This document shows positions 52,802-64,000 of a stretch of 64,000 nt of DNA, one piece after another. This DNA is from Bacteroidota bacterium. Lineage in GTDB: Bacteria; Bacteroidota; Bacteroidia; Palsa-965. The position numbers and the translations under genes were made by a program. Each line of letters starts with the position of its first letter. Positions within the stretch are counted from its first letter, which is position 1. The notes under the pieces were generated by a model, which was not told the origin of the DNA, ran no database searches, and worked only from the letters and a program-made list of their open reading frames with translations. The DNA is taken from positions 66,956-130,955 of the forward strand of contig JANOCU010000032.1 of assembly GCA_031412295.1 (NCBI GenBank), read 5' to 3'.

Positions 52802-53032
52802 GGAAAAGGAAAATAGGAAATTAAGGGGATAAATAATTAAGAATTGAGAAATTAGGTAAAGAAGTAATTAGACCTTCATCACATTCTATATTTTAGGTTG
52901 CATTTCCCGAATTTCTAATCTTCCAGTTTCGATTTGTTAATTGCCTATAGCTCCCATTTCCCTAATTCCCTAATTTCCCTAGTTTCCCCCTTTTCCCTAC
53001 CTTTGCATCCATACAAAAAACTCAACTCTTTC

Positions 53033-55210
53033 ATGAAAAAACACTTACTCGCATTTTCATTTTTTGCACTATTCGGAAGCTTAAGCCTGAATGCGCAAAT
53101 CGTTTATTCCGAAGATTTCGATGGAATCCCCGGACCAACAGCAGGCGGACCCGGAACATATACCATGGCTCCCGGAATGCTACTTCGCAATGTGGATAAC
53201 CGCACACCTGATGCACAGGTTTCTTATGTGAATGAAGCATGGGAACGTCGTGAAGATTTCAACTTTAACGTTGCTGACTCTTGTGCATTCAGCACTTCAT
53301 GGTATTCACCTGTAGGAGCTGCAAATGATTTTATGTGGACACCGGTGATCGGGCCATTGCCTGCGAATTCGGTGCTTTCATGGAATGCTGTAGCGTACGA
53401 TCCAACATTCCTGGATGGTTATGAAGTTCGTATCATGACTATTGCTCCTACCGGCGGAACAGGTGTGATCGGAAATCAGCTTACCAGCTCAACAGTTATC
53501 TTCTCAACCGCCGCTGAAGCAAGCACATGGACTTCCCATTCCGTAAGTCTTTCTGCGTATGCAGGTCAATCCGTTTACATCGGGTTCCGAAATAATTCGA
53601 ATGATAAATTTTTATTGCTCGTTGATGATATTCTAGTGCAGGTACAAGTGAATTTCGATGCAGAATTGTTGAGTGTGGATTCCATGCAGTACACAATTGA
53701 ACCAACATCGCAACGCACACCAAATACAATTAAAGGTGTTGTCCGCAATAATGGTTCGAGCGCAATTACGAACGTACAATTGGTATTCAGTGTATTTGAC
53801 GGAACAATGACACAGGTGTATACTAACTCCAGCCCTGTGCTTGGTTCACTTGCACCAAATGCTACTTCAACGTTAACTGTTGGTTCTTACACACCACCGG
53901 CCGCAATTGATCTTTATACTTACACTTATACCGTAACTACAAGCAGCACCGACCAGGTTCCTGCAAATAATTCACTTTCAAGGACTCTTATCGTTGACGA
54001 CAGCATATACGCACGCGACGATGGGAATGTTGTAGGATCACTTGGAATCGGTGCAGGAAATGGCGGTTATCTCGGTCAGCAATTCGAAGTAGTAAGCAGC
54101 GCTGATCCGTTGACATCCATTTCTTATTACATGACCCGCGGTTATACAGGTCGTCGTACTGCAGCAGTAGTGTGGGATATGCTTTCAGGAGCACCAAATC
54201 AAATTATTGCTTTCACAGATACAATTCTTTACCAGGATGACTCTGCACGTCTTTACACAATAATGATTGACGGCGGTCCAATGTCATTAACACCGGGCAT
54301 GTATGTAGTAACTGCAATTGAATTTGATTCCACGCTGGCACTCGGACAAACAAATACAATTTTCGTCCCCGGAACAACATGGGTAGACTGGCCGACAAGT
54401 CCGATCACAGGTTGGGCAAACAATGAAGACTTCGGTGCAGGATTCATGAAGCCTTATGTAATTCGTCCGAACTTCGGTGATCCTTGTATCGGCTTCTCTT
54501 CACTTGCAACAAGCACAGATGCAACATGCGGCGCTTGTACAGACGGTTCAGCAACAGTCACACTTACTGAAGGAAGCGCGCCTTTCACATACGCATGGTC
54601 GAGCGGCGGAACTGCTGCAACAGAAAATAATCTTGCAATGGGTTCCTATATTGTAACTGTAACAGATCAGTTCGGTTGCACAACAAGTGATACCGTTGCT
54701 GTTGGAAATGATTGCAGCAGCTACAGCGCTTCTGCTTCTTCAGTTGCCGCGTCATGTGCCGTTTGTGCAGATGGAACAGCAACCGCAACCACAACAAACG
54801 GAACAGGGCCATTCACTTACCTCTGGTCGAACGGCGATACTGCTATGACAGCAGACAGTTTGCTCCCGGGAGTTTACACAGTAACAGTAACTGATGCAGC
54901 AGGATGCAGTTCGGTGGTAACTGTAACAGTAAACTTCACAACTTCTACACATACATTAGGCGTAGCAGGTTCTGTAGGCGTTTTCCCTAATCCATCAGAA
55001 GGAAACTTTACCCTGTTCGTGAATATTCCTTCAGCAGCAGATGTGCAGGTTGAAGTAATAAATTCACTCGGACAAGTTGTTTATGCAAGCGCTCACCTGG
55101 ATTATTCCGGTGGACAGCTTCCGATTTTTATTGAAACACCCGGAATGTACACCGTGAAAATCATGACAGCGGAAGCAATGCGTGCGATTCCTGTATTGAT
55201 TAAAAATTAA
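53033..55210 (+). CDS. Secreted protein with a choice-of-anchor-J-like N-terminal domain, two SprB-type repeats and a T9SS type-A CTD
   Basis: The signal peptide is MKKHLLAFSFFALFGSLSLNAQ. The SprB-like repeats are CGACTDGSATVTLTEGSAPFTYAWSSGG...GSYIVTVTDQFGCTTSD and CAVCADGTATATTTNGTGPFTYLWSNGD...GVYTVTVTDAAGCSS. The C-terminus VFPNPSEGNFTLFVN...GMYTVKIMT is the sorting domain. The start is assigned to the internal Met at 53033. Confidence 0.75.
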   Translation: MKKHLLAFSFFALFGSLSLNAQIVYSEDFDGIPGPTAGGPGTYTMAPGMLLRNVDNRTPDAQVSYVNEAWERREDFNFNVADSCAFSTSWYSPVGAANDFMWTPVIGPLPANSVLSWNAVAYDPTFLDGYEVRIMTIAPTGGTGVIGNQLTSSTVIFSTAAEASTWTSHSVSLSAYAGQSVYIGFRNNSNDKFLLLVDDILVQVQVNFDAELLSVDSMQYTIEPTSQRTPNTIKGVVRNNGSSAITNVQLVFSVFDGTMTQVYTNSSPVLGSLAPNATSTLTVGSYTPPAAIDLYTYTYTVTTSSTDQVPANNSLSRTLIVDDSIYARDDGNVVGSLGIGAGNGGYLGQQFEVVSSADPLTSISYYMTRGYTGRRTAAVVWDMLSGAPNQIIAFTDTILYQDDSARLYTIMIDGGPMSLTPGMYVVTAIEFDSTLALGQTNTIFVPGTTWVDWPTSPITGWANNEDFGAGFMKPYVIRPNFGDPCIGFSSLATSTDATCGACTDGSATVTLTEGSAPFTYAWSSGGTAATENNLAMGSYIVTVTDQFGCTTSDTVAVGNDCSSYSASASSVAASCAVCADGTATATTTNGTGPFTYLWSNGDTAMTADSLLPGVYTVTVTDAAGCSSVVTVTVNFTTSTHTLGVAGSVGVFPNPSEGNFTLFVNIPSAADVQVEVINSLGQVVYASAHLDYSGGQLPIFIETPGMYTVKIMTAEAMRAIPVLIKN

Positions 55211-55307: not shown

Positions 55308-56876
55308 ATGTCAAAAAAGTTACTTTTCATTTTCGCCGCATTTTTCCTCATCAAAACCGGGATCGCACAACCAACATGGGCGACAGATGTAGCACCGATT
55401 TTATACCAGCATTGCACCAGTTGCCATAATGCAACCGGCATCGCACCATTTTCACTAATGACCTACGCTGATGCATTTCCGAATGCAGGTGATATGGCGA
55501 ATGATGTTTCACAGCGCATTATGCCACCGTGGCCTCCCGATACAGCCTACACACGCTTTTGTGATGAGCGGATTCTTTCACAGGCAGAAATTCAAACCAT
55601 CGTTGACTGGGCTTCAACAGGCGCTCAACCGGGAAATTTAGCATCTGCTCCAACACCACCAACTTATACAGGAATTGCAGCCATCACTAATCCTGATCTC
55701 GTTGCACAAATTCCACTGTACACCGTAAATACAGCAACAGATCTTTATCGCTGCTTCGTAGTACCAAGTGGAAATGCCAGCACAGAATACATCACAAAGA
55801 TCGAAGTGCTTCCGGGTAACCGCGCAATTGTTCACCACGTTTTGGTGTACCAGGACCAGGCCAACACCTGCGTTAATCTTGATAATGCAGATCCGGCTCC
55901 GGGGTATACAAATTTTGGTGGCGTTGGTTCAAACACAGCAACCCTTGTACTTGGTTGGGTTCCCGGACAGGATATGTATCAGCTTCCGGCTAACATGGGA
56001 ATAAAGCTGGAGGCAAATACAAATTTGATTTTCCAGGTGCATTATCCCGGCGGAACATTCAACCAGGTCGACAGCACACAGGTACGAATGACATTTTCTT
56101 CCGGCTTAGTAAGAAATGTTTCGCTTGCCCCGGTAATCAATCATTCCACATCGCTTACAAATGGTCCGTTGTATATTCCGGCCAACCAGGTGCAAACATT
56201 TTACGCGCAGGAATTTGTCAGCCTTGATGCAACCATTATCAGCATCGCGCCGCACATGCATTTGATCGGTAAGTCAATTACAAATTATGCAGTAACGCCA
56301 TTGGCAGATACAATTCCTTTGATCCAAATCAATGATTGGGATTTTCACTGGCAGGGTTTTTACAATTATCGTCAGCCCGTTCACGTTCCGTATGGCAGCA
56401 CACTTTACGCGCACGCGGTGTATGATAATACCGTAAACAATCCATCTAATCCGAACAATCCACCACAAGCAGTTTGGGAAGGCGAATCCACCACCGATGA
56501 AATGATGATCGTGTATTATGCTTATTTGCCGTACCAGCTCGGTGATGAGAATATTATCATCGATTCAACAGTTGCCGTGCAGGAACACATGTATTCCGAT
56601 TTGATCATCACGCCACAACTTTACGAACCATATCCTGTTCCATCAGCGAATGGAGAAAGTGTAACCGTTTCTTTTTTCCTCCCGAATAAAACAGGAGTGA
56701 AAATCGAAATCGTTGATGTAACAGGAAAAGTGATTGCAGTTCCAATGCAAACCACAGAAACATCTGCAGGCTTCGGAAAAGCACAAATCAACACAACAGG
56801 ATTTGCAAAAGGAACCTACATCGTGAAGCTCACTGCAGACGGAAGTGTAAAAACGAAATCGATTATTGTTCAATAA
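55308..56876 (+). CDS. Secreted fusion of a c-type cytochrome (CxxCH) domain and a copper type II (PHM/DBH-like) monooxygenase, with a T9SS type-A CTD
   Basis: It has a signal peptide. The heme motif is HCTSCHN at aa 35..41. The Cu2-monooxygenase His/Met ligand pattern is VHHVLVY, then about 68 aa to QVHYP, then about 72 aa to APHMHLIG, then about 80 aa to DEMMIVYY. The C-terminus SVTVSFFLPNKTGVKIEIVDVTGKV...GTYIVKLTADG is the sorting domain. Confidence 0.65.
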   Translation: MSKKLLFIFAAFFLIKTGIAQPTWATDVAPILYQHCTSCHNATGIAPFSLMTYADAFPNAGDMANDVSQRIMPPWPPDTAYTRFCDERILSQAEIQTIVDWASTGAQPGNLASAPTPPTYTGIAAITNPDLVAQIPLYTVNTATDLYRCFVVPSGNASTEYITKIEVLPGNRAIVHHVLVYQDQANTCVNLDNADPAPGYTNFGGVGSNTATLVLGWVPGQDMYQLPANMGIKLEANTNLIFQVHYPGGTFNQVDSTQVRMTFSSGLVRNVSLAPVINHSTSLTNGPLYIPANQVQTFYAQEFVSLDATIISIAPHMHLIGKSITNYAVTPLADTIPLIQINDWDFHWQGFYNYRQPVHVPYGSTLYAHAVYDNTVNNPSNPNNPPQAVWEGESTTDEMMIVYYAYLPYQLGDENIIIDSTVAVQEHMYSDLIITPQLYEPYPVPSANGESVTVSFFLPNKTGVKIEIVDVTGKVIAVPMQTTETSAGFGKAQINTTGFAKGTYIVKLTADGSVKTKSIIVQ

Positions 56877-57065: not shown

Positions 57066-57659
57066 TTACTGCTGATTCTGCTGCCTCACCAAATACCTGT
57101 TCAGCTCCCACGTTCCCCACGCACATGCCGAACCAATCAACGCGCCAATCAAAACATCCGTCGGGTAATGCACACCCAAATGCATGCGCGAATAACCAAC
57201 TGTAAACGCCCAGATATAAGCCGGCGCAATCACATACCACTTCGGGTAACACAAACTAACCGAAGTCGCCAGCGCAAACGCAGAAGAAGTATGCCCCGAA
57301 GGAAAAGATTTCGGACCCGCATGCGTATCATGCCTGAAAATATCCGGGTAAGTAACATAAGGCCGCGGACGATTGACAGTGTATTTCAATCCAAGCGTAA
57401 TGCTCACACTCGCAGCAAGCGAAAAACAAACAACAGCAGGTTTCCGGATATCACCATCTTTCCTGAAATATTCGTAAGCCAGCAACCCTGCAGGAATTCC
57501 AATCATCAATGGAGCTACCGTCTGCGAAGTAAACCGCATCGTTCTGTCGATTCGCAAATTTTCAGGACCGTTGATGTTGCGTAAAAGACGGATGTCAGCA
57601 TTCTGCGCGTTTGCTGTCGCGAATAAAAAAGAGAAAAGAAAAAGGAAAAAGGTTTTCAA
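57066..57659 (-). CDS. PAP2-superfamily phosphatase (membrane)
   Basis: 197 aa. KYTVNRPRP, PSGHTS and SRMHLGVHYPTD are the three PAP2 motifs. Confidence 0.75.
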   Translation of the reverse strand: MKTFFLFLFSFLFATANAQNADIRLLRNINGPENLRIDRTMRFTSQTVAPLMIGIPAGLLAYEYFRKDGDIRKPAVVCFSLAASVSITLGLKYTVNRPRPYVTYPDIFRHDTHAGPKSFPSGHTSSAFALATSVSLCYPKWYVIAPAYIWAFTVGYSRMHLGVHYPTDVLIGALIGSACAWGTWELNRYLVRQQNQQ

Positions 57660-58879
57660 TGTATAGCGACGGTAGTTTTTTTCACGGTTCTTCCCGGGTA
57701 AACTTTTAATGCTTCATCGAGACAGATCATCGCATTTTTCAGATCCGTGCGATTCAGAACGTAGGCGATACGCACTTCATCTGTTCCCGCTCCCGGCGTA
57801 GAATAAAATCCTGTCGCAGGAGCAAGCATTACTGTTTCTCCGCTGTGATTAAAACTTTCCAAAAGCCATTGACAGAAAATATCTGCATTGTCAATTGGTA
57901 AACGCGCAATGCAATAAAATGCCCCGCTTGGCTTCGGACAAAAAACTCCGTCCATTTTATTCAGCGCTTCAATCACAAAATCTCTTCGTGCTGTATATTC
58001 CATAATTACACCATCGAAATAAGATTGCGGTGTTTCCAAAGCAGCCTCAGCGCCGATCTGTCCGAATGTTGGCGGACTTAATCGTGCCTGCGCAAATTTC
58101 ATTGCGTTCGCCATCACCTCTTTATTTTTCGAGATCAGCGCGCCGATTCGTGCACCGCATGCGCTGTAACGTTTCGAAATGGAGTCGAGAAGCACTACAT
58201 TGTTTTCAAGTCCTGCGAGATGCATAACAGAAACATAGGTCTTTCCGTCGTAGCAAAACTCGCGGTAAACTTCATCCGACAAAAGGAACAGGTCGTACTT
58301 CAAAACCAGCTGCTTCAATGCTTCCAGCTCTTCGCGTGTGTAGAGATAACCTGTAGGATTTCCCGGATTGCAGATCATGATGCCTTTTGTTTTCGGCGTG
58401 ATCATTTTTTCAAACGCTTCAATAGGAGGAAGTGCAAAACCGGATTCAATAGAAGAACGAATTGGTTTTACGATGAGATCCGCCGCGCAGGAAAATCCAT
58501 TGTAGTTCGCATAAAATGGTTCCGGGATTATGATTTCATCACCCGGATTGAAACAAGTCAGCATCGCAATTTCAATCGCTTCCGATCCGCCTGTGGTGAT
58601 CATAATATCTTCCATCTCCACAGGCATATCGAACTTGCGGTAATAAGCAGCAAGCTTTTTGCGATATGATTCAATTCCTGCAGAATGGGAATATTCAATA
58701 ATTTTTATGTTGGAATTCTTAATCGCGTTCAACATCACCTCAGGAGTTTCAATGTCGGGCTGACCGATATTGAGGTGATAGATTTTCTTGCCTTCTTTTT
58801 TCGCTTTTTCAGCGAATGGAACAAGCTTGCGAATAGGGGACGACGGCATATGATCCGCCTTCTGGGATACTTTTGGCAT
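57656..58879 (-). CDS. Class I/II pyridoxal-phosphate-dependent aminotransferase, aspartate/aromatic aminotransferase-like
   Basis: 407 aa. The N-terminus reads SSPIRKLVPFAEKAKKEGKKIYHLNIGQPDIETP. The PLP-lysine region is DSISKRYSACGARIG. It overlaps the PAP2 start by 4 nt. Confidence 0.75.
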   Translation of the reverse strand: MPKVSQKADHMPSSPIRKLVPFAEKAKKEGKKIYHLNIGQPDIETPEVMLNAIKNSNIKIIEYSHSAGIESYRKKLAAYYRKFDMPVEMEDIMITTGGSEAIEIAMLTCFNPGDEIIIPEPFYANYNGFSCAADLIVKPIRSSIESGFALPPIEAFEKMITPKTKGIMICNPGNPTGYLYTREELEALKQLVLKYDLFLLSDEVYREFCYDGKTYVSVMHLAGLENNVVLLDSISKRYSACGARIGALISKNKEVMANAMKFAQARLSPPTFGQIGAEAALETPQSYFDGVIMEYTARRDFVIEALNKMDGVFCPKPSGAFYCIARLPIDNADIFCQWLLESFNHSGETVMLAPATGFYSTPGAGTDEVRIAYVLNRTDLKNAMICLDEALKVYPGRTVKKTTVAIH

Positions 58880-59043
58880 GGGAAGTTTCTAGGATGGTAA
58901 AGGTCGCAAATAGCCGCTGATTTCGCTGATTTTCGCAGATAAAAAATACAGGAAAATCGGGCATGCCTTAAATAATCACCGTAAATCTGCGAAACCGCTG
59001 CCTGCAGACGCGCGTGCATTGCTGCGGCAGGCAGGAGCGGCTG

Positions 59044-59463
59044 CTAACCTTTCCGCTTCAGCACAATCGCCTTAAACGTAAGCGTAACCGGTGAATTCGA
59101 AGCATTTGATTTTACGATCACCGTTCTTTCCTGGCGGTCCATTGCACTTTTGCTGTCGAAAGTAACTTTTACTATTCCTGTTTGTCCTGTTTGAATCGGT
59201 TGTTTTGGGAAATCTACTTTCGTGCATTCACACGATACTTCTGCTTCGGTAATAATTAAAGGTTCATCGCCGGTATTTGTAAAGGTAAATTCATGCGAAA
59301 CAATATCGCCCTGGTGAATCATTCCGAAATTATGTTTCACCGAATCAAATGTCATTGCAGCGGCCTGCCTGCCCACGTGTTGAGCTGCGCGTTGCAGGCA
59401 GGGATTAGAAACCCTGAAAGCAAAAACGCTGATGAGAAATACGAATGCGAGGAGCCTTTTCAT
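59044..59463 (-). CDS. DUF1573-domain protein, paralog 1
   Basis: 139 aa. It has a signal peptide. The core is FTFTNTGDEPLIITEAEVSCECTKVDFPKQPIQTGQTGIVKVTFDS. Confidence 0.7.
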   Translation of the reverse strand: MKRLLAFVFLISVFAFRVSNPCLQRAAQHVGRQAAAMTFDSVKHNFGMIHQGDIVSHEFTFTNTGDEPLIITEAEVSCECTKVDFPKQPIQTGQTGIVKVTFDSKSAMDRQERTVIVKSNASNSPVTLTFKAIVLKRKG

Positions 59464-59555
59464 GAAATGAAGTTACAATTTAAAAAAACAAAAAGAGCAA
59501 ATACCAAATTCCAAACATTGTCTTGGGATTTGATATTTGCTCTTTTGTATTTCAT

Positions 59556-59960
59556 TTAGGGTGTTACAATTGTTCCGTTAAGATGAAGAACTATATTTCC
59601 GTCACCGTTATTCGAAATGATCGTGGCTGTTTTATGCTGTAGTCCCATTTTATTGGCAGAATCAAACACCACGTGAATTGTTCCTGATTTACCCGGGGCA
59701 ATCGGCTCTTTCGGATAATTAGGAACGGTACAGCTGCACGATCCTTCTGCTGAGGTAATGATCAATGGTGTTTTTCCTGTATTCTTAAATACAAAATCCA
59801 TTTCCACTTTCGTTCCTTGTTTTACCGTTCCGAAATCAATCGTGTCTTGTTTAAATGTCATCACCGGAGCAGATGGATCGATCCCGGCGGTAGATTGCGG
59901 TTGTGCAGACACAGATAAAAATCCGGTCATAAGAATTGCAGCGAGTAGGAACATTTTCAT
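59556..59960 (-). CDS. DUF1573-domain protein, paralog 2
   Basis: 134 aa. FVFKNTGKTPLIITSAEGSCSCTVPNYPKEPIAPGKSGTIHVVFDS. Confidence 0.7.
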   Translation of the reverse strand: MKMFLLAAILMTGFLSVSAQPQSTAGIDPSAPVMTFKQDTIDFGTVKQGTKVEMDFVFKNTGKTPLIITSAEGSCSCTVPNYPKEPIAPGKSGTIHVVFDSANKMGLQHKTATIISNNGDGNIVLHLNGTIVTP

Positions 59961-60019
59961 TGGAGAAAATTTTAGTTTGTTAGGTAATTCACTAACTGCA
60001 AATACTACGCCACGAAATG

Positions 60020-61051
60020 TTAATCCGGTTTGTAAGGCGGAGTGACTTCGCCGATAATATTTAATACTACTACCTGGTCATTATTATACCTAATGATAAT
60101 CTGCTTATGCTGTACTCCTCTTCTGGCATCCGTATTAAGCAGGTATTTTATTACACCCTTTCCACCGGGAGGAATCGGTTCACGAGGTGCTTCAGCAACA
60201 TCACATCCGCAGGCAGTAACACAATCAGTTATTTGAATGGGTGTTGTTCCGGTATTTGTAAAAGGAATTTCAAGCCTTACATATTCACCCTGTTTTACTT
60301 TTTCAAAATGATAAGTTGTTGAATCGAATTTCATATACTGCACTGCATAAACCCATCCTGTCAATTGCAGCTGAACACTTCCATTTTCACTGTTCGATTG
60401 AATGTCGATCGATTTACTCAATGGTCCTGTTCGGTCAGAAGTGGTTTGCGTTATTTTAATTACACCCGATTCACCCGGCGGAATTTCATTCTTTGGCCAT
60501 TCCGCATAGTTAGCGCCATGACCAAATACTACATTCCTGATGATGAGATTTGCTTTACCTGCATTTGTAAAATGAAATTCTTTAACAATCAATGTTCCCT
60601 GTTCCACTTTTCCGAAACTGATTGATGTCGAATCAAACCTGATGAGCGCAAACGGACCGGTCGTGATATTTCCTTTTATATGCAGCACAATATTTCCATC
60701 CCGATTATTCGATTCGATCGTAGTTGTTTTATCCTGCAACCCCATTTTACCATCCGTACAAAAACGAATAACAATCACTCCCTTATTTCCCGGCGCTATC
60801 GGCTCTTTCGGATAATCTGCAACCGTCCCACCTGAACCGCGCGCACCAGTAATAATAAGAGGGGATTTCCCTGTATTCTTAAAATAGAAATTCTCCAGGA
60901 CCTGTGTACCCGGTTTTACATCACAAAAATTTTGAGTTAAAGAATCAAACGTCATCACCGGCTCATTCAGATCGAGTGGGGGTGGAATACTTTGTGCTTC
61001 CGAATTCGCATAACAAAAAAGAAGAATAAAAAAGAGGAGAAATTTTTTCAT
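60020..61051 (-). CDS. Triple-DUF1573-domain protein, paralog 3
   Basis: 343 aa containing three consecutive DUF1573-like modules. Confidence 0.7.
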   Translation of the reverse strand: MKKFLLFFILLFCYANSEAQSIPPPLDLNEPVMTFDSLTQNFCDVKPGTQVLENFYFKNTGKSPLIITGARGSGGTVADYPKEPIAPGNKGVIVIRFCTDGKMGLQDKTTTIESNNRDGNIVLHIKGNITTGPFALIRFDSTSISFGKVEQGTLIVKEFHFTNAGKANLIIRNVVFGHGANYAEWPKNEIPPGESGVIKITQTTSDRTGPLSKSIDIQSNSENGSVQLQLTGWVYAVQYMKFDSTTYHFEKVKQGEYVRLEIPFTNTGTTPIQITDCVTACGCDVAEAPREPIPPGGKGVIKYLLNTDARRGVQHKQIIIRYNNDQVVVLNIIGEVTPPYKPD

Positions 61052-61093
61052 GCAGCGGGATTTGGGTTTATCTAACCAACAAAAATCAAGCCT

Positions 61094-61281
61094 GCCTCAC
61101 CCCGTGGGAGATTTCATCTCACGAACATTTCCAATCCCCCTCTCCAGGGAGAGGGGGATTGGAAGTTTTCATAGAAAGGTTTCAGCAAAATTTCGTGAGA
61201 AGAAAATCTAAATCCCCCTCTCCCCCGGAGAGGGAACACCACAATGCCCATCGCTATAAAAATCTCCCAAAGGGGTGAGGC
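61094..61281. mobile_element. MITE-like 188-bp element with about 21-bp terminal inverted repeats and internal GGGGG/CCCCC palindromes
   Basis: The left TIR is GCCTCACCCCGTGGGAGATTT and the right TIR is AAATCTCCCAAAGGGGTGAGGC. The internal perfect palindromes are CCAATCCCCCTCTCC-AGGG-AGAGGGGGATTGG at 61131..61162 and CCCTCTCCC-CCGG-AGAGGGA within 61213..61235. There is also CATCTCACGAA ... TTCGTGAGAAG. Confidence 0.45.
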
Positions 61282-61305
61282 ACAAAAATTTAGTTTTAAC
61301 CAAAA

Positions 61306-61737
61306 TTAATTCCCGCCTGTGGCCGGTGTGCCGGCGGGAGTTACTGTACCTTTAATTTTTACGTCAACAATTGCATTCGATGCGTTCGATGTTACTGTGA
61401 TCTTTTTGTCAAACATTCCCGGACGATTTGTTGTATCATATTTTACTTTAAAAGAAGCTGTTCCCCCGGGAGGAATCGGATCTTTTGGCCAGCCTTCAGG
61501 TAATGTAGTGCAACCACACTGACCTTTGATGCTGGTAATTATCAATGGTGTTTTTCCTGTATTTGTAAATGTAAAAACACGAATTGCCTCTGTTCCGTAA
61601 ACAATACTTCCGAAGTTGATCTCTGTTTCTGCAAAAGTGATCACAGGTGCATTCGGATCTGCAAGAGCAACGGGTGCTTGTGCAGACAAACGCATGGAAG
61701 CGACAAGCAAAAACAATACAGGAATGAATCGTTTCAT
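61306..61737 (-). CDS. DUF1573-domain protein, paralog 4
   Basis: 143 aa. FTFTNTGKTPLIITSIKGQCGCTTLPEGWPKDPIPPGGTASFKVKYDT. Confidence 0.7.
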   Translation of the reverse strand: MKRFIPVLFLLVASMRLSAQAPVALADPNAPVITFAETEINFGSIVYGTEAIRVFTFTNTGKTPLIITSIKGQCGCTTLPEGWPKDPIPPGGTASFKVKYDTTNRPGMFDKKITVTSNASNAIVDVKIKGTVTPAGTPATGGN

Positions 61738-61751
61738 CGGATTGTGGCTGA

Positions 61752-62321
61752 TTAGTTATTTACCGGGGTTGCACCATTTGTTGGTGTTGAACCTGGTCCC
61801 GGGAAAGATGTTTCAGAAGGCGGAGCTTCAACAGTTCCTTTAATTTTAAGAACTGCAGGAGTATCTTTTCCCTGGAAAGTCACTGTAACCTGCTTTTCAA
61901 AAGGTCCGATACGATTTGTATCGTAGTGAACTGTGATTACAACAGTTTGTCCCGGTTTGATCGGCTCTTTCGGATAAGTTGGAACCGTACAGCCACATGA
62001 ACCGTGCGCTTCAGTGATTACAAGCATTTCTTTGCTTGTATTCGTGATGCGGAATTCACAATTAGGCTCGCCACCTTTTTTGATAGTGCCGTAATCGTGT
62101 GTGGTTTTGTCAAACTTATAACCAGGATCAGCCTTGGTTTGAGTTGTTGCGGCCGGGGCTGTTTGCGTAGTTGCAGGTGCAGTCTTTGTTGTTGCAGCCG
62201 GAGCTGGTTTAGTAGCAGCAGGAGCCGGTTTGGTTGCTGTTGGAGCCGGTTTGGTAACCGTTTGTGCATTAGCAGCAGCAAAACCAAAGCAAAGGACAGA
62301 AATTGCGATCAGCTTTTTCAT
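61752..62321 (-). CDS. DUF1573-domain protein, paralog 5, with an N-terminal KPAPAAT/TTQTAPA low-complexity linker
   Basis: 189 aa. FRITNTSKEMLVITEAHGSCGCTVPTYPKEPIKPGQTVVITVHYDT. Confidence 0.7.
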   Translation of the reverse strand: MKKLIAISVLCFGFAAANAQTVTKPAPTATKPAPAATKPAPAATTKTAPATTQTAPAATTQTKADPGYKFDKTTHDYGTIKKGGEPNCEFRITNTSKEMLVITEAHGSCGCTVPTYPKEPIKPGQTVVITVHYDTNRIGPFEKQVTVTFQGKDTPAVLKIKGTVEAPPSETSFPGPGSTPTNGATPVNN

Positions 62322-62341
62322 TTGGAAAAAGGGTTTTAAAA

Positions 62342-62950
62342 TTAGTGTTTCGGCTTTTCAGCTGGTGTTGTTGGAGCTGTTGTTCTTGGCGCTGTAGATG
62401 CAGGAGCTGTAGTAGCAGTTTTTGGTGCTGTAGCAGGACCATTTGTGCCTTTTGGAGCTGTTGTAGTTGCAGGTGTTGTAGTTGATTTAGGGGCCGGTGT
62501 TGAAGCGCCGCCTTGTGGTGCTGTCTGGCCATCTTTTGGTGCAGCTGCAGCCTCTACATTTCCTTTAATATGAAGAACAATAGTTTTGTCAGTGTCATAT
62601 GTCAAAGTAACTGTTTTGTCCTGCATGCCCATTTTACCTGCAGAGTTAAAAGTCACTTTAATGATGCCTGAACCATTTGGTTTGATCGGCTCTTTTGGAT
62701 AATCAGGAACTGTGCAGCCACATGATCCGACAGCATTATTAATGATCAATGGCTCACGACCTGTGTTTTTGAATTTGAACTCGTAGGTTACAGATTCACC
62801 TTGTTTGATAGTTCCGTAATTGTATTCAAGAACATCAAAGGTCATAACCGGACCATTTTTAGATTCCATTCCGGAAGTTACAGGAGCTTGCGCTTTAGAA
62901 ACGGTGATAAAACCGAGGCACAAAAGCGGCAGGAGGAGCAATTTTTTCAT
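62342..62950 (-). CDS. DUF1573-domain protein, paralog 6, with a C-terminal Pro/Thr/Ala-rich tail
   Basis: The start is taken at MKKLLLLPLLCLGFITVSKAQ, an internal Met of the longer ORF. The core is FKFKNTGREPLIINNAVGSCGCTVPDYPKEPIKPNGSGIIKVTFNS. The tail is TPAPKSTTTPATTTAPKGT... Confidence 0.7.
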   Translation of the reverse strand: MKKLLLLPLLCLGFITVSKAQAPVTSGMESKNGPVMTFDVLEYNYGTIKQGESVTYEFKFKNTGREPLIINNAVGSCGCTVPDYPKEPIKPNGSGIIKVTFNSAGKMGMQDKTVTLTYDTDKTIVLHIKGNVEAAAAPKDGQTAPQGGASTPAPKSTTTPATTTAPKGTNGPATAPKTATTAPASTAPRTTAPTTPAEKPKH

Positions 62951-63104
62951 TGTAAAAGTTTTTTGATGATTAGGAGTGTAATAGTTTCGGTTCTCAACAG
63001 CTAAAATCATGCCATAGTCAGGCTTCCTTAAACTATTGACTCGGCGAAAATTATTAGCTTTACAGCCCTTGTAAATAAAGGGAAGTACCGAAGATAAGCT
63101 ATTT

Positions 63105-64000
63105 ATGGAAATCGCAAAAACCTTTGAATTTTCTGCCGCTGAAGAGCGCTGGTATGACTTCTGGAATAACCAGGGCTTTTTCCGCTCTGTTCCCGATGAT
63201 CGTGAGCCGTATACCATTGTAATTCCGCCTCCTAACGTTACAGGCGTGCTGCACATGGGGCATATGTTAAATAACACTATCCAGGATGTGCTGGTGCGCC
63301 GGGCAAGAATGCTGGGCAAGAATGCGTGCTGGGTTCCGGGGACCGACCATGCTTCCATTGCTACTGAGGCTAAGGTAGTTGCGCTCCTGAAAGAAAAAGG
63401 AATTAACAAAAAAGATCTGACCCGCGATGAGTTTTTGAAATACGCGTGGGAATGGAAAGAAAAATACGGCGGAATTATTTTAGAGCAGCTCAAAAAGCTC
63501 GGCGCCTCCTGCGATTGGGAACGTACGCGTTTTACAATGGAAGAAGAGCTGAGCGAATCCGTGATCGATGTTTTTATTGATCTCTACCAGAAAGGTCATA
63601 TTTACCGCGGAACACGAATGGTCAACTGGGACGTTTCTGCATTGACCGCTGTTTCGGATGAAGAAGTAATCATGAAAGAGGCGACTTCGAAATTGTATTA
63701 TTTAAGGTACAAAATCGAAGGCACAGAAGATGAATGGGTGACGATTGCCACTACACGACCTGAAACAATTTTAGGTGATACTGCTGTTTGTGTTCATCCC
63801 GAAGATGAGCGTTATGCAAAACTGGCAGGCAAAAAAGTAATCGTTCCTTTATTAAATCGCCCGATCGAAATTATTTACGATGAATATGTAGATAAAGAAT
63901 TCGGAACAGGCGCTTTGAAAGTTACTCCTGCGCACGATCGTAACGATTATGAATTAGGAAAAAAACATAATCTAGCTTCCATTGATATTTTGAATCCGGA
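63105..64000 (+). CDS. valS: Valine--tRNA ligase, 5' part; the gene continues beyond the window end
   Basis: [26 protein letters not shown]...[29 protein letters not shown] matches the class-I HIGH region, and the ValRS N-terminus is conserved. Confidence 0.9.

What the first reader, a model, noticed from the sequence alone, without database searches (positions are those of the whole stretch)
59044..62950. Tandem array of six DUF1573 paralogs, including a triple-domain fusion and Pro/Thr/Ala-rich linkers
Six consecutive minus-strand genes all encode the roughly 100-aa DUF1573 module. The module has a conserved FxFxNTGxxPLxIT...GxCxCT...YPKEPIxPG core and its own signal peptide. One gene carries three modules in series. 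Two genes carry KPAPAAT or TPAPK low-complexity tails, which suggests surface or linker roles. Spacing is tight, and several intergenic gaps contain hairpins. DUF1573 has no assigned function. A six-gene array, mixing single-domain and multi-domain forms and lying next to an aminotransferase and valS, suggests lineage-specific expansion. Roles such as a secreted binding-module family or a cell-surface layer are plausible.
Basis: partly seen in the sequence, partly recalled or inferred. Interest (0 to 1): 0.5.

Follow-up and report, generated by a model that had tools for sequence, protein, structure and literature searches.

The report
Array of exported DUF1573 CxC proteins
Six neighbouring genes in an uncultured Bacteroidota genome encode small exported immunoglobulin-like proteins of the uncharacterised DUF1573 family; related bacteria put selenocysteine at the first cysteine of the conserved Cys-x-Cys loop in the equivalent genes, which points to periplasmic thiol-redox (or soft-metal) chemistry rather than a surface layer.

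Summary
Six minus-strand genes (59044-62950) encode eight DUF1573 (PF07610) modules, with E-values from 1e-31 to 6e-69. One gene carries three modules and two genes have Pro/Thr/Ala-rich stretches.

The array is not unique to this genome. It is an enlarged version of a conserved Bacteroidota locus, valS <-> DUF1573 x n -> aminotransferase, where n is 1, 2, 5, 6 (here) or 9 in other genomes. Five of the six genes have positional orthologues in relatives, with dN/dS of 0.05-0.19. The duplications are therefore old and each copy is maintained. Three-domain DUF1573 proteins are common.

The fold is a HYDIN/ASH/PapD-like Ig sandwich. The CxC lies in a short loop between two strands. It is invariant in the 52 aligned one-domain relatives (50 proteins with 1-3 domains in later samples lack it in at least one domain) and absent from giant multi-repeat relatives.

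Metagenomic genes at the same position, just upstream of the aminotransferase orthologue, carry an in-frame TGA (UGC) at the first Cys. The same is true of genes in a second conserved locus, nusB-DUF1573-yajC.

Best reading (about 0.45): exported CxC thiol-redox modules. Function is untested. This is a new member of a known but uncharacterised family, of moderate interest.

The parts
62342..62950 (-). g6: signal peptide (..VSKA|QAP), one DUF1573 module (62555-62845), CGC at 62714-62722, and a 70-aa Thr/Ala/Pro-rich C-terminal tail (62345-62554) ending in EKPKH
   Evidence: PF07610 E = 2.5e-33. Translation checked. Orthologues at the same position in L001, L011, L012, L013 and L014 all end in (D/E/T/R)PK[HNY]. 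dN/dS 0.06-0.12.
61752..62321 (-). g5: signal peptide (..AANA|QTV), a 48-aa N-terminal KPAPAAT-type linker (62121-62264), one module (61830-62117), CGC at 61989-61997, and a conserved tail APPSETSFPGPG..PVNN (61755-61829)
   Evidence: PF07610 E = 9.4e-33. 21-nt tandem repeat at 62194-62256. The tail motif is conserved in orthologues. dN/dS 0.05-0.07.
61306..61737 (-). g4: signal peptide (..RLSA|QAP), one module (61342-61641) with a 2-residue insertion after the CxC, CGC at 61510-61518, and the tail PAGTPATGGN
   Evidence: PF07610 E = 1.5e-31. Forms an orthologue clade with the third gene of the array in five other genomes. dN/dS 0.09-0.16.
60020..61051 (-). g3: signal peptide plus three modules (60665-60955, 60356-60646, 60038-60334). 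Only the third module keeps the CxC (CGC at 60203-60211).
   Evidence: PF07610 E = 6.4e-69 with 3 stretches. The AF2 model has three confident beta-sandwiches (pLDDT 90.8) but an uncertain mutual arrangement (pTM 0.48). The CxC pattern -,-,C compares with the usual C,-,C in 59 of 63 three-domain relatives.
59556..59960 (-). g2: signal peptide (..SVSA|QPQ), one module (59568-59861), and CSC at 59730-59738
   Evidence: PF07610 E = 3.3e-35. AF2 pLDDT 88.4, with C75/C77 in the 4-residue connection between strands 68-73 and 78-81. Orthologues read CHC.
59044..59463 (-). g1: divergent member (CEC at 59224-59232; FPKQPIQTG). It has an atypical N-terminus carrying a 13-codon insertion; module at 59062-59355.
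   Evidence: PF07610 E = 2.3e-33. Orthologues in L001, L013 and L014 read CKC or CEC and lack the insertion. dN/dS 0.06-0.10.
59491..59546 (-). Terminator-like hairpin after g2 (24-nt arms, 92% complementary), followed by a T-run on the minus strand
   Evidence: It suggests g1 is transcribed separately from g3-g2. This is an inference.
61093..61282 (.). Nested palindrome of about 190 nt filling the 254-nt gap between g4 and g3
   Evidence: RNA MFE of -108 kcal/mol for the gap, z = -6.8. Its GGGAGAGGGGGATT motif occurs only here in the window and is absent from all 210 loci fetched up. No significant Rfam match. Probably an inserted element or an insulator/terminator; its role is unknown.
63105..64000 (+). 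5' part of valS, divergent from g6. The shared 154-nt intergenic region presumably holds both promoters.
   Evidence: PF00133 E = 9e-58. The orthologous neighbour in L001 carries the Val_tRNA-synt_C domain.
57656..58879 (-). Class I/II aminotransferase downstream of the array, the conserved 3' neighbour of the locus
   Evidence: PF00155 E = 3e-50. Orthologues of 58-90% identity follow the DUF1573 gene or genes in 20 or more other loci.

Best explanation
The six genes encode soluble proteins that are exported by Sec and signal peptidase I and are most likely periplasmic. Each protein is built from one or three roughly 100-residue HYDIN/ASH/PapD-like Ig sandwiches.

The working part is the Cys-x-Cys pair, in a short loop between two consecutive strands. 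The first Cys (selenocysteine in some orthologues) would be the attacking nucleophile. The second Cys, two residues on, would resolve it into a strained CxC disulfide. Each module would then act as a small thiol-disulfide exchange catalyst or electron shuttle for envelope proteins, or for a small oxidant. The closest analogues are the Ig-fold redox proteins nDsbD and CsgC.

The paralogues differ in three ways: the residue between the cysteines (G; S or H; E or K), their linkers and tails, and the presence of Cys-less modules. This fits specialisation by substrate or redox potential. The Cys-less modules of g3 could serve as binding or spacer domains.

Shown: family membership, fold, export signals, conservation, the Sec/Cys position and the synteny. 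Inferred: periplasmic location, formation of a CxC disulfide, and any catalytic activity or substrate.
For: 1. Family and fold. PF07610 and PF22544 score above threshold in all six genes. The AF2 models are confident. Fold matches are HYDIN PapD-like domains, the VesB/VesC Ig domain, ASH, MSP and P. gingivalis 2QSV.

2. Export. Five of six N-termini are hydrophobic, with A-x-A|Q sites (direct reading). This matches the Bacteroidetes Q-rule for type I signal peptidase substrates (PMC5837995). No T9SS tail was detected. A 133-aa DUF1573 protein is present in Tannerella outer-membrane-vesicle proteomes (PMC10682907).

3. The CxC is functional rather than structural.
- It is invariant in 52 single-domain relatives.
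- In mature g2, g4 and g6 it provides the only cysteines.
- It is present in 1.3% of modules of relatives with 6 or more modules (36 proteins), and in none of the 33 relatives with 8 or more modules and over 1,190 aa. The fold therefore does not need it.

4. Sec/Cys pair. The literature lists PF07610/OS_HP2 selenoproteins with a UxC or UGC motif (PMC2398784, PMC9312934). My own metagenome scan found 19 DUF1573 reading frames (18 distinct; two are identical) with an in-frame TGA exactly at the first Cys, with profile E-values down to 2e-38. The RNA just downstream of the TGA is more stable than in Cys forms (median -7.9 against -5.2 kcal/mol, p = 0.003).

5. The Sec forms are positional orthologues. 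Seven loci (six distinct sequences) lie directly upstream of an aminotransferase 60-71% identical to the window's. Six more lie in nusB-X-yajC. Three such arrays (L159, L166, L163) have three tandem genes with exactly one UGC member.

6. Precedent.
- Periplasmic Ig-fold CsgC has a redox-active CxC (E = -139 mV).
- nDsbD is an Ig-fold thiol-disulfide exchanger.
- The CGC peptide has a potential of -167 mV (PMC3173608).
- A CGC is the active site of the DsbB-like MauE (bioRxiv 10.64898/2026.03.05.709764).

7. Selection and specialisation. Each paralogue is under purifying selection (dN/dS 0.05-0.19). The middle residue of the CxC is specific to each orthologue group.
Against: - No experiment on any DUF1573 protein was found in the searchable literature.
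- I could not read model coordinates, so the S-S distance and the exposure of the pair are unknown.
- No thioredoxin-like, DsbD/CcdA or other redox partner is encoded next to the array, here or in relatives. The neighbours are housekeeping genes.
- nDsbD and CsgC were not among the top 50-60 fold matches, so the comparison is by analogy only.
- From memory, not checked here: CsgC's main role was later shown to be inhibition of amyloid formation independent of its CxC. An Ig fold plus a CxC therefore does not prove redox function.
- Two modules of g3 have lost the pair.
- A Sec/Cys position would also fit a metal ligand.
Confidence: 0.45

Rival explanations
1. The modules are periplasmic soft-metal binders or chaperones (for Cu(I), Zn, Cd or Hg). 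The two thiolates of the CxC, or a selenolate plus a thiolate, bind a metal ion, possibly across a dimer. The array would then supply buffering or delivery capacity, for example to exported cuproenzymes.
For: - CxC and CHC motifs (CHC in g2 orthologues) are classic thiolate metal sites. This is established knowledge from metallothioneins, the CXC of CCS domain 3 and Ctr1 tails.
- Several predicted selenoproteins found in the same surveys are metal-handling proteins: MerP/MerT-like, YHS and cation ATPase.
- Ig-like sandwiches are used by periplasmic copper proteins such as CopC and PCuAC (own knowledge).
- A T9SS-secreted PHM/DBH-like copper monooxygenase lies 2 kb away, both here and in L001.
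Against: - No other conserved His, Met, Asp or Cys ligand is present; the invariant residues are N, I, C, C, T, P and I.
- The copper-enzyme neighbour is absent from the more distant loci.
- No metal-resistance or transport genes are nearby.
- Most Sec/Cys pairs are redox sites (PMC2398784).
Confidence: 0.2
2. The modules are Cys-independent binding, chaperone or scaffold proteins of the envelope. This is the first reader's 'binding module or surface layer' idea, or a CsgC-like holdase. The Ig fold would do the work and the CxC would be accessory.
For: - The fold family (ASH, MSP, PapD-like, HYDIN) is a protein-protein interaction fold.
- Cys-less modules exist in g3 and in giant repeat proteins.
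- Flexible P/T/A linkers and conserved short tail motifs look like tethers and docking peptides.
- Some relatives carry a T9SS tail and so reach the surface (P0088 and P0103).
Against: - The CxC is invariant in the 52 aligned one-domain relatives and kept in most modules of small proteins, and it was replaced by the costlier Sec in several lineages. That is hard to explain for an accessory feature.
- None of the six proteins has an anchor or a T9SS domain.
- No S-layer or pilus genes are nearby.
Confidence: 0.2
3. The proteins are PapD-like pilus or fimbrial chaperones, or are otherwise part of a fibre-assembly system.
Against: - The modules are single, about 100 residues long, rather than the two-domain chaperone.
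- No usher, pilin or type V pilus genes are in the window or in related loci.
- The matches to HYDIN and ASH are better.
Confidence: 0.03

Closest known systems
Pfam PF07610 (DUF1573), including the NCBIfam OS_HP2 (seleno)protein subfamily NF041425
   Same: All eight modules match PF07610 end to end. They share the same CxC position that is UxC or UGC in the selenoprotein members.
   Different: The window's modules use Cys, not Sec. They score only 46-59 bits per single-module protein against NF041425, whose cut-off is 100 bits. g3's 144 bits is the sum of three modules. The family has no assigned function.
HYDIN/CFA65/VesB-like Ig domain (PF22544), within the ASH / MSP / PapD-like superfamily
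   Different: Those domains lack the CxC...PKEPI signature. They are cytoskeletal or ciliary repeats or protease appendages, not small exported stand-alone proteins.
P. gingivalis W83 protein of unknown function, PDB 2QSV
   Different: It has 17% identity and two domains, and the DUF1573 profile does not detect it at E <= 10. It has no known function, so it adds nothing on mechanism.
Ig-fold periplasmic redox proteins: the DsbD N-terminal domain and CsgC
   Same: These are exported beta-sandwiches with a reactive Cys pair in a loop. CsgC has an invariant CxC with E = -139 mV, and was solved in both oxidised and reduced forms (PMC3173608).
   Different: No detectable homology: neither is among the top fold hits. 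The Cys pair sits in a different loop. This is an analogy of mechanism, not family membership.
CGC or CXC active sites in disulfide-generating proteins (MauE; the CGC peptide as a PDI mimic)
   Same: The tripeptide is the same: CGC in four of the six genes here. A CGC is required for DsbB-like activity in MauE. The CGC peptide has a potential of -167 mV (cited).
   Different: MauE is a membrane protein that works with quinone. Here the motif sits on a soluble Ig domain with no identified electron donor or acceptor.

Membership tests
Pfam PF07610 DUF1573 | HMM score at or above the gathering threshold (26.1 bits), with full-length module coverage | tested here: met
   Scores of 108.7-228.6 bits. 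Matches cover profile positions 1-98 of 98 in each gene, with three stretches in g3.
Pfam PF07610 DUF1573 | Conserved CxC followed by T..(Y/W/F)PK(E/D/Q)PI | tested here: met
   Present in 6 of 8 modules and lost in the first two modules of g3. Invariant in 52 single-domain relatives.
PF22544 HYDIN/VesB/CFA65-like Ig (PapD-like / ASH fold) | HMM score above 25.5 bits, and a seven-to-eight-strand beta-sandwich that matches solved members | tested here: met
NCBIfam NF041425 OS_HP2 family (seleno)protein | Score at or above the 100-bit cut-off | tested here: not met
   Single-module proteins score 45.6-59.2 bits. g3 reaches 143.9 bits only by summing three modules. These are related to the subfamily but not members of it.
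NCBIfam NF041425 OS_HP2 family (seleno)protein | Selenocysteine (in-frame TGA) at the first position of the CxC, or its Cys counterpart | tested here: met
   The window has Cys (TGT or TGC) at that codon in six modules. Positional orthologues in metagenomes have TGA there.
Thiol-disulfide oxidoreductase (functional class; Ig-fold examples nDsbD and CsgC) | Exported protein with a solvent-exposed pair of cysteines able to cycle between dithiol and disulfide | tested here: inconclusive
   Signal peptides were read directly. The CxC lies in a 4-5-residue non-strand connection between strands.
Thiol-disulfide oxidoreductase (functional class; Ig-fold examples nDsbD and CsgC) | Measured redox potential or catalytic activity | not testable with these tools
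   This needs purified protein. No published assay on a DUF1573 protein was found.
Thiol-disulfide oxidoreductase (functional class; Ig-fold examples nDsbD and CsgC) | Homology to nDsbD or CsgC | tested here: not met
T9SS cargo / cell-surface protein | C-terminal sorting domain (PF18962 or a related family) | tested here: not met
   None of the six proteins hits PF18962 at E <= 0.01, although the neighbouring genes at 55308 and 52934 do. Some distant relatives (P0088, P0103) carry it.
Bacterial lipoprotein | A lipobox with a Cys at the cleavage site, at the end of the hydrophobic region | tested here: not met
   g2-g6 have A-x-A|Q type I sites, and their signal-peptide cysteines lie inside the hydrophobic region. 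The nusB-yajC-linked paralogues in other genomes do have lipoboxes, for example ..FTAC|NN. This was judged by eye, not with a predictor. g1 is ambiguous.
PapD-like periplasmic pilus chaperone | Two-domain chaperone encoded with usher and pilin genes | tested here: not met
   The modules are single. No usher or pilin genes occur in the window end or in syntenic loci.

The most novel reading that the evidence does not exclude
DUF1573 may be an unrecognised family of exported Ig-fold CxC/UxC thiol oxidoreductases that is core to envelope biogenesis in Bacteroidota. It would have two branches: one lipoprotein copy linked to the Sec-accessory gene yajC, and one soluble set linked to valS and the aminotransferase. 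The array here (six genes, with CGC, CSC and CEC centres plus Cys-less modules) would be a set of enzymes specialised by substrate or tuned in redox potential, or a redox relay. In sister lineages one member has been upgraded to selenocysteine.
Probability: 0.3. Interest if true: 0.7.

Novelty: new member of a known kind. Interest (0 to 1): 0.4.

Why it matters
DUF1573 is a large family: about 55,000 clusters at 50% identity match the profile. It sits in two highly conserved housekeeping neighbourhoods of Bacteroidota, yet has no assigned function.

This locus, together with its Sec-containing positional orthologues, gives a concrete and testable hypothesis: an Ig-fold CxC redox or metal site in the periplasm. 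It also offers a natural series of variants for biochemistry (CGC, CSC/CHC, CEC/CKC, UGC and Cys-less).

If the redox reading holds, it would add a non-thioredoxin catalyst class to envelope thiol chemistry in a major phylum. If it does not hold, the array is simply an old paralogue expansion of a binding module.

Tried and rejected
- Exact look-up of the window's own proteins in the contig index found nothing. I used homologues instead.
- The PDB sequence search with g2 gave no hit. The profile search found only HYDIN-type repeats.
I repeated it with a tighter 10-sequence alignment.
- The Rfam scan of the locus gave only sub-threshold chance hits to hairpins.
- The sigma-70 promoter scan found no more sites than shuffled sequence. 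A search for the Bacteroidetes -7 motif TAnnTTTG found no site upstream of any gene start.
- A common SECIS structure across all Sec forms could not be defined. RNAalifold returned no consensus because the hairpins are in different registers. Only a weaker energy comparison was possible.
- Neighbour clustering for 27 loci without marker genes gave only housekeeping genes, namely a putative prenyltransferase (my reading of the example sequence) and one unidentified protein. This gave no functional lead.
- The Bacteroidetes O-glycosylation motif D[ST][AILVMT] occurs inside several modules but not in the P/T/A linkers. I did not pursue it.
- The AFDB fold library was unavailable.
- Pilus-chaperone and surface-layer readings were considered and set aside (see the rival explanations).

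Full report
WHAT IS THERE

The region holds six consecutive minus-strand ORFs: g1 59044-59463, g2 59556-59960, g3 60020-61051, g4 61306-61737, g5 61752-62321 and g6 62342-62950. Every one matches Pfam PF07610 (DUF1573) over the whole 98-position model, at 108-229 bits against a 26.1-bit threshold. g3 matches three times, giving eight modules. The same stretches also pass the threshold of PF22544, the HYDIN/CFA65/VesB-like Ig domain. A profile built from the eight modules finds no other copy in the 64-kb window.

A class I/II aminotransferase (57656-58879) and a PAP2 phosphatase lie downstream. valS starts at 63105 on the opposite strand and is therefore divergent from g6. The gaps between the genes are 20, 14, 254, 59 and 92 nt.

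ANATOMY OF THE PROTEINS

Five N-termini are short hydrophobic signal peptides ending A-x-A|Q: SKA|Q, ANA|Q, LSA|Q, SEA|Q and VSA|Q. This is the pattern described as the Bacteroidetes Q-rule for type I signal peptidase substrates (PMC5837995). None of the six has a T9SS sorting domain, although two genes a few kb away do.

- g5 has a 48-residue KPAPAAT-type linker between the signal peptide and the module. It is 77% P+T+A and is encoded by a 21-nt tandem repeat.
- g6 has a 70-residue T/A/P-rich C-terminal tail.
- The low-complexity stretches vary between orthologues, but short motifs at their ends are conserved. g6-type proteins end in (D/E/T/R)PK[HNY], g5-type in APPSETxFPGPG...PVNN, and g4-type in PAGxPAxGGN.

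The modules are 28-62% identical to one another. Six keep a Cys-x-Cys: CGC in g6, g5, g4 and the third module of g3, CSC in g2, and CEC in g1. The first two modules of g3 have lost it. In mature g2, g4 and g6 these are the only cysteines.

FOLD

AF2 models are confident for g2 (pLDDT 88.4) and g3 (pLDDT 90.8). The pTM of 0.48 for g3 means three well-defined sandwiches whose mutual arrangement is uncertain. In both models the CxC lies in a 4-5-residue non-strand connection between two consecutive strands.

Structure searches return the following:
- the Ig domains of VesB and VesC;
- OCRL ASH, CEP192 and MSP domains;
- pilus chaperones, more weakly.

By sequence, only HYDIN repeats are found in the PDB. 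The FxFxNTG and PG motifs are therefore general to the fold. The CxCT..PKEPI part is what is specific to DUF1573.

WHERE THE ARRAY COMES FROM

A scan of one genome per GTDB species kept the 80 loci most similar to g6, out of at least 597 confirmed matches. I scored these with the module profile and with marker proteins. Two conserved neighbourhoods appear.

1. nusB -> DUF1573 -> yajC (-> coaE). The DUF1573 gene is always single-copy here; this covers 38 of the 90 loci scored (80 from the genome scan plus 10 fetched earlier). The proteins I looked at from this context are lipoproteins with a lipobox and a disordered linker.

2. valS <-> DUF1573 x n -> aminotransferase. The copy number n is 1 in, for example, Cryomorphaceae; 2 in eight loci; at least 3 and at least 4 in two loci cut by contig ends; 5 in two genomes; 6 here; and 9 in a 4.96-Mb metagenomic contig that shares the whole synteny, including PAP2 and the copper monooxygenase.

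The window's locus is thus an expanded form of a widespread one-gene locus.

A neighbour-joining tree of the modules groups g6, g5, g4, g2 and g1 each with the gene at the corresponding position in L001, L011, L012, L013 or L014. The third module of g3 also pairs with an L001 module; the rest of g3 and the extra genes in relatives are variable. Orthologue pairs have dN/dS of 0.05-0.19. The duplications are therefore old, the order is conserved, and each copy is individually maintained.

Three-domain DUF1573 proteins are very common in Bacteroidota. They usually show the pattern CxC, none, CxC (59 of 63). In Cytophagales they sit divergently next to trpS. The window's g3 (none, none, CxC) is an unusual variant of a usual architecture. 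The source organism is an uncultured Bacteroidota bacterium, judged from the names given to close relatives.

THE CYS PAIR

The CxC is invariant in 52 single-domain relatives. In contrast, relatives with 8-20 modules found by an exhaustive profile search lack it almost completely: 1.3% of modules carry it. That search matched 55,466 clusters at E <= 1e-3. The fold therefore does not need the pair, which argues against a structural disulfide.

Reviews and the original surveys list PF07610/OS_HP2 among predicted selenoproteins with a UxC or UGC motif. I tested this directly with a metagenome pattern scan for TGA-GGN-TGY-ACN followed by the PIxPG codons.

- The scan returned 19 reading frames (18 distinct; two are identical) that match the DUF1573 profile across the TGA, with E-values down to 2e-38. 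They have intact signal peptides or lipoboxes upstream and the rest of the module downstream.
- Each has a local hairpin starting about 12-16 nt after the TGA.
- The 39 nt downstream fold more stably than in 136 Cys forms (median -7.9 against -5.2 kcal/mol, p = 0.003).
- No single consensus structure could be defined.

The Sec forms are positional orthologues. Seven loci (six distinct sequences) lie immediately upstream of an aminotransferase 60-71% identical to the window's, and six lie between nusB and yajC. Three of the aminotransferase-linked loci carry three tandem DUF1573 genes, of which exactly one is UGC. The first Cys of the window's motif is therefore a Sec/Cys position within its own orthologous neighbourhood.

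HOW IT MOST LIKELY WORKS

A Sec/Cys pair next to a second Cys, on an exposed loop of a small exported protein, is the signature of a reactive thiol centre. Most predicted Sec/Cys families are thiol oxidoreductases (PMC2398784).

There is direct precedent for redox chemistry on Ig folds in the periplasm. nDsbD is one example. CsgC is another: its invariant CxC has E = -139 mV and was seen both oxidised and reduced (PMC3173608). A CGC is the active site of the DsbB-like MauE.

I therefore favour thiol-disulfide exchange or electron shuttling by the CxC, at about 0.45. The paralogue-specific middle residue (G; S or H; E or K), the tails and the Cys-less modules would provide specificity or tuning. 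The link of the lipoprotein paralogue to yajC, a Sec-translocon accessory gene (established knowledge), is suggestive but only circumstantial.

The points against are these:
- there are no experimental data on the family;
- no redox partner gene is nearby;
- there is no homology to nDsbD or CsgC;
- I could not measure the geometry of the pair;
- from memory, CsgC itself later turned out to act mainly as a Cys-independent amyloid inhibitor.

VERDICT

The 'lineage-specific expansion' is supported, but it is old and is shared with related genomes. The triple-domain form is ordinary. A surface-layer role is unsupported.

The locus is a new member, and a large example, of a known but uncharacterised family. 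Its main value is as a natural panel of CxC variants, with Sec-containing positional orthologues, for working out what DUF1573 does.

Noticed in passing
window 61093-61282: A nested palindrome of about 190 nt fills the 254-nt gap between g4 and g3. The RNA MFE is -108 kcal/mol (z = -6.8). The motif GGGAGAGGGGGATT occurs three times here and nowhere else in the window. A search with a 13-nt core of this motif found no match in any of the 210 loci fetched up. There is no significant Rfam match. It may be an inserted MITE- or REP-like element, or an insulator or terminator.
   Followed up: partly
window 59364-59402 and 58996-59037: Two related hairpin elements of about 40 nt, with arms CCTGCCTGC / GCAGGCAGG, bracket g1. 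One lies inside the coding region. It is exactly 39 nt long, and g1 has 13 more residues here than its orthologues in L001, L013 and L014 (..SNPCLQRAAQHVGRQAAAMTFD against ..SNPALMKFD). The other lies just after the stop codon.
   Followed up: partly
L159 72-1544; L166 2124-3538; L163 8690-10117; L116 1940-2901: Metagenomic Bacteroidota loci carry two or three tandem DUF1573 genes upstream of the aminotransferase orthologue. Exactly one member has an in-frame TGA (UGC) in place of the first Cys. The Sec member is the gene next to the aminotransferase in three of these loci and the middle gene in L163.
   Followed up: yes
L006, L008 and 36 further loci (e.g. L022, L030, L052): A very conserved nusB -> DUF1573 -> yajC (-> coaE) arrangement across Flavobacteriales, Sphingobacteriales and Cytophagales. 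The DUF1573 proteins inspected from it are lipoproteins. Sec-containing versions of this gene also exist (L107, L111, L137, L157, L169, L177).
   Followed up: partly
L009 5783-8104; L010 5961-8080; window 62950-63105: DUF1573 genes sit divergently next to an aminoacyl-tRNA synthetase gene in two different arrangements: valS in this clade, and a class Ib aminoacyl-tRNA synthetase gene (PF00579; taken as trpS) for the three-domain form in Cytophagales. This is unexplained and may be chance conservation of housekeeping synteny.
   Followed up: no
window 55308-56876 (+) and 52934-55210 (+): A PHM/DBH-like copper type II monooxygenase with a T9SS C-terminal sorting domain, and an SprB-repeat protein with a T9SS tail. 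Both are also present next to the array in L001.
   Followed up: no
window 59491-59546: A strong terminator-like hairpin after g2 (24-nt arms, 92% complementary, followed by a T-run on the minus strand). It suggests g1 is a separate transcription unit.
   Followed up: no
proteins P0210, P0214, P0320 and others: Giant bacterial proteins of 1,400-6,900 aa contain 7-20 modules matching the DUF1573 profile, all without the CxC. They are presumably HYDIN-like repeat adhesins.
   Followed up: partly
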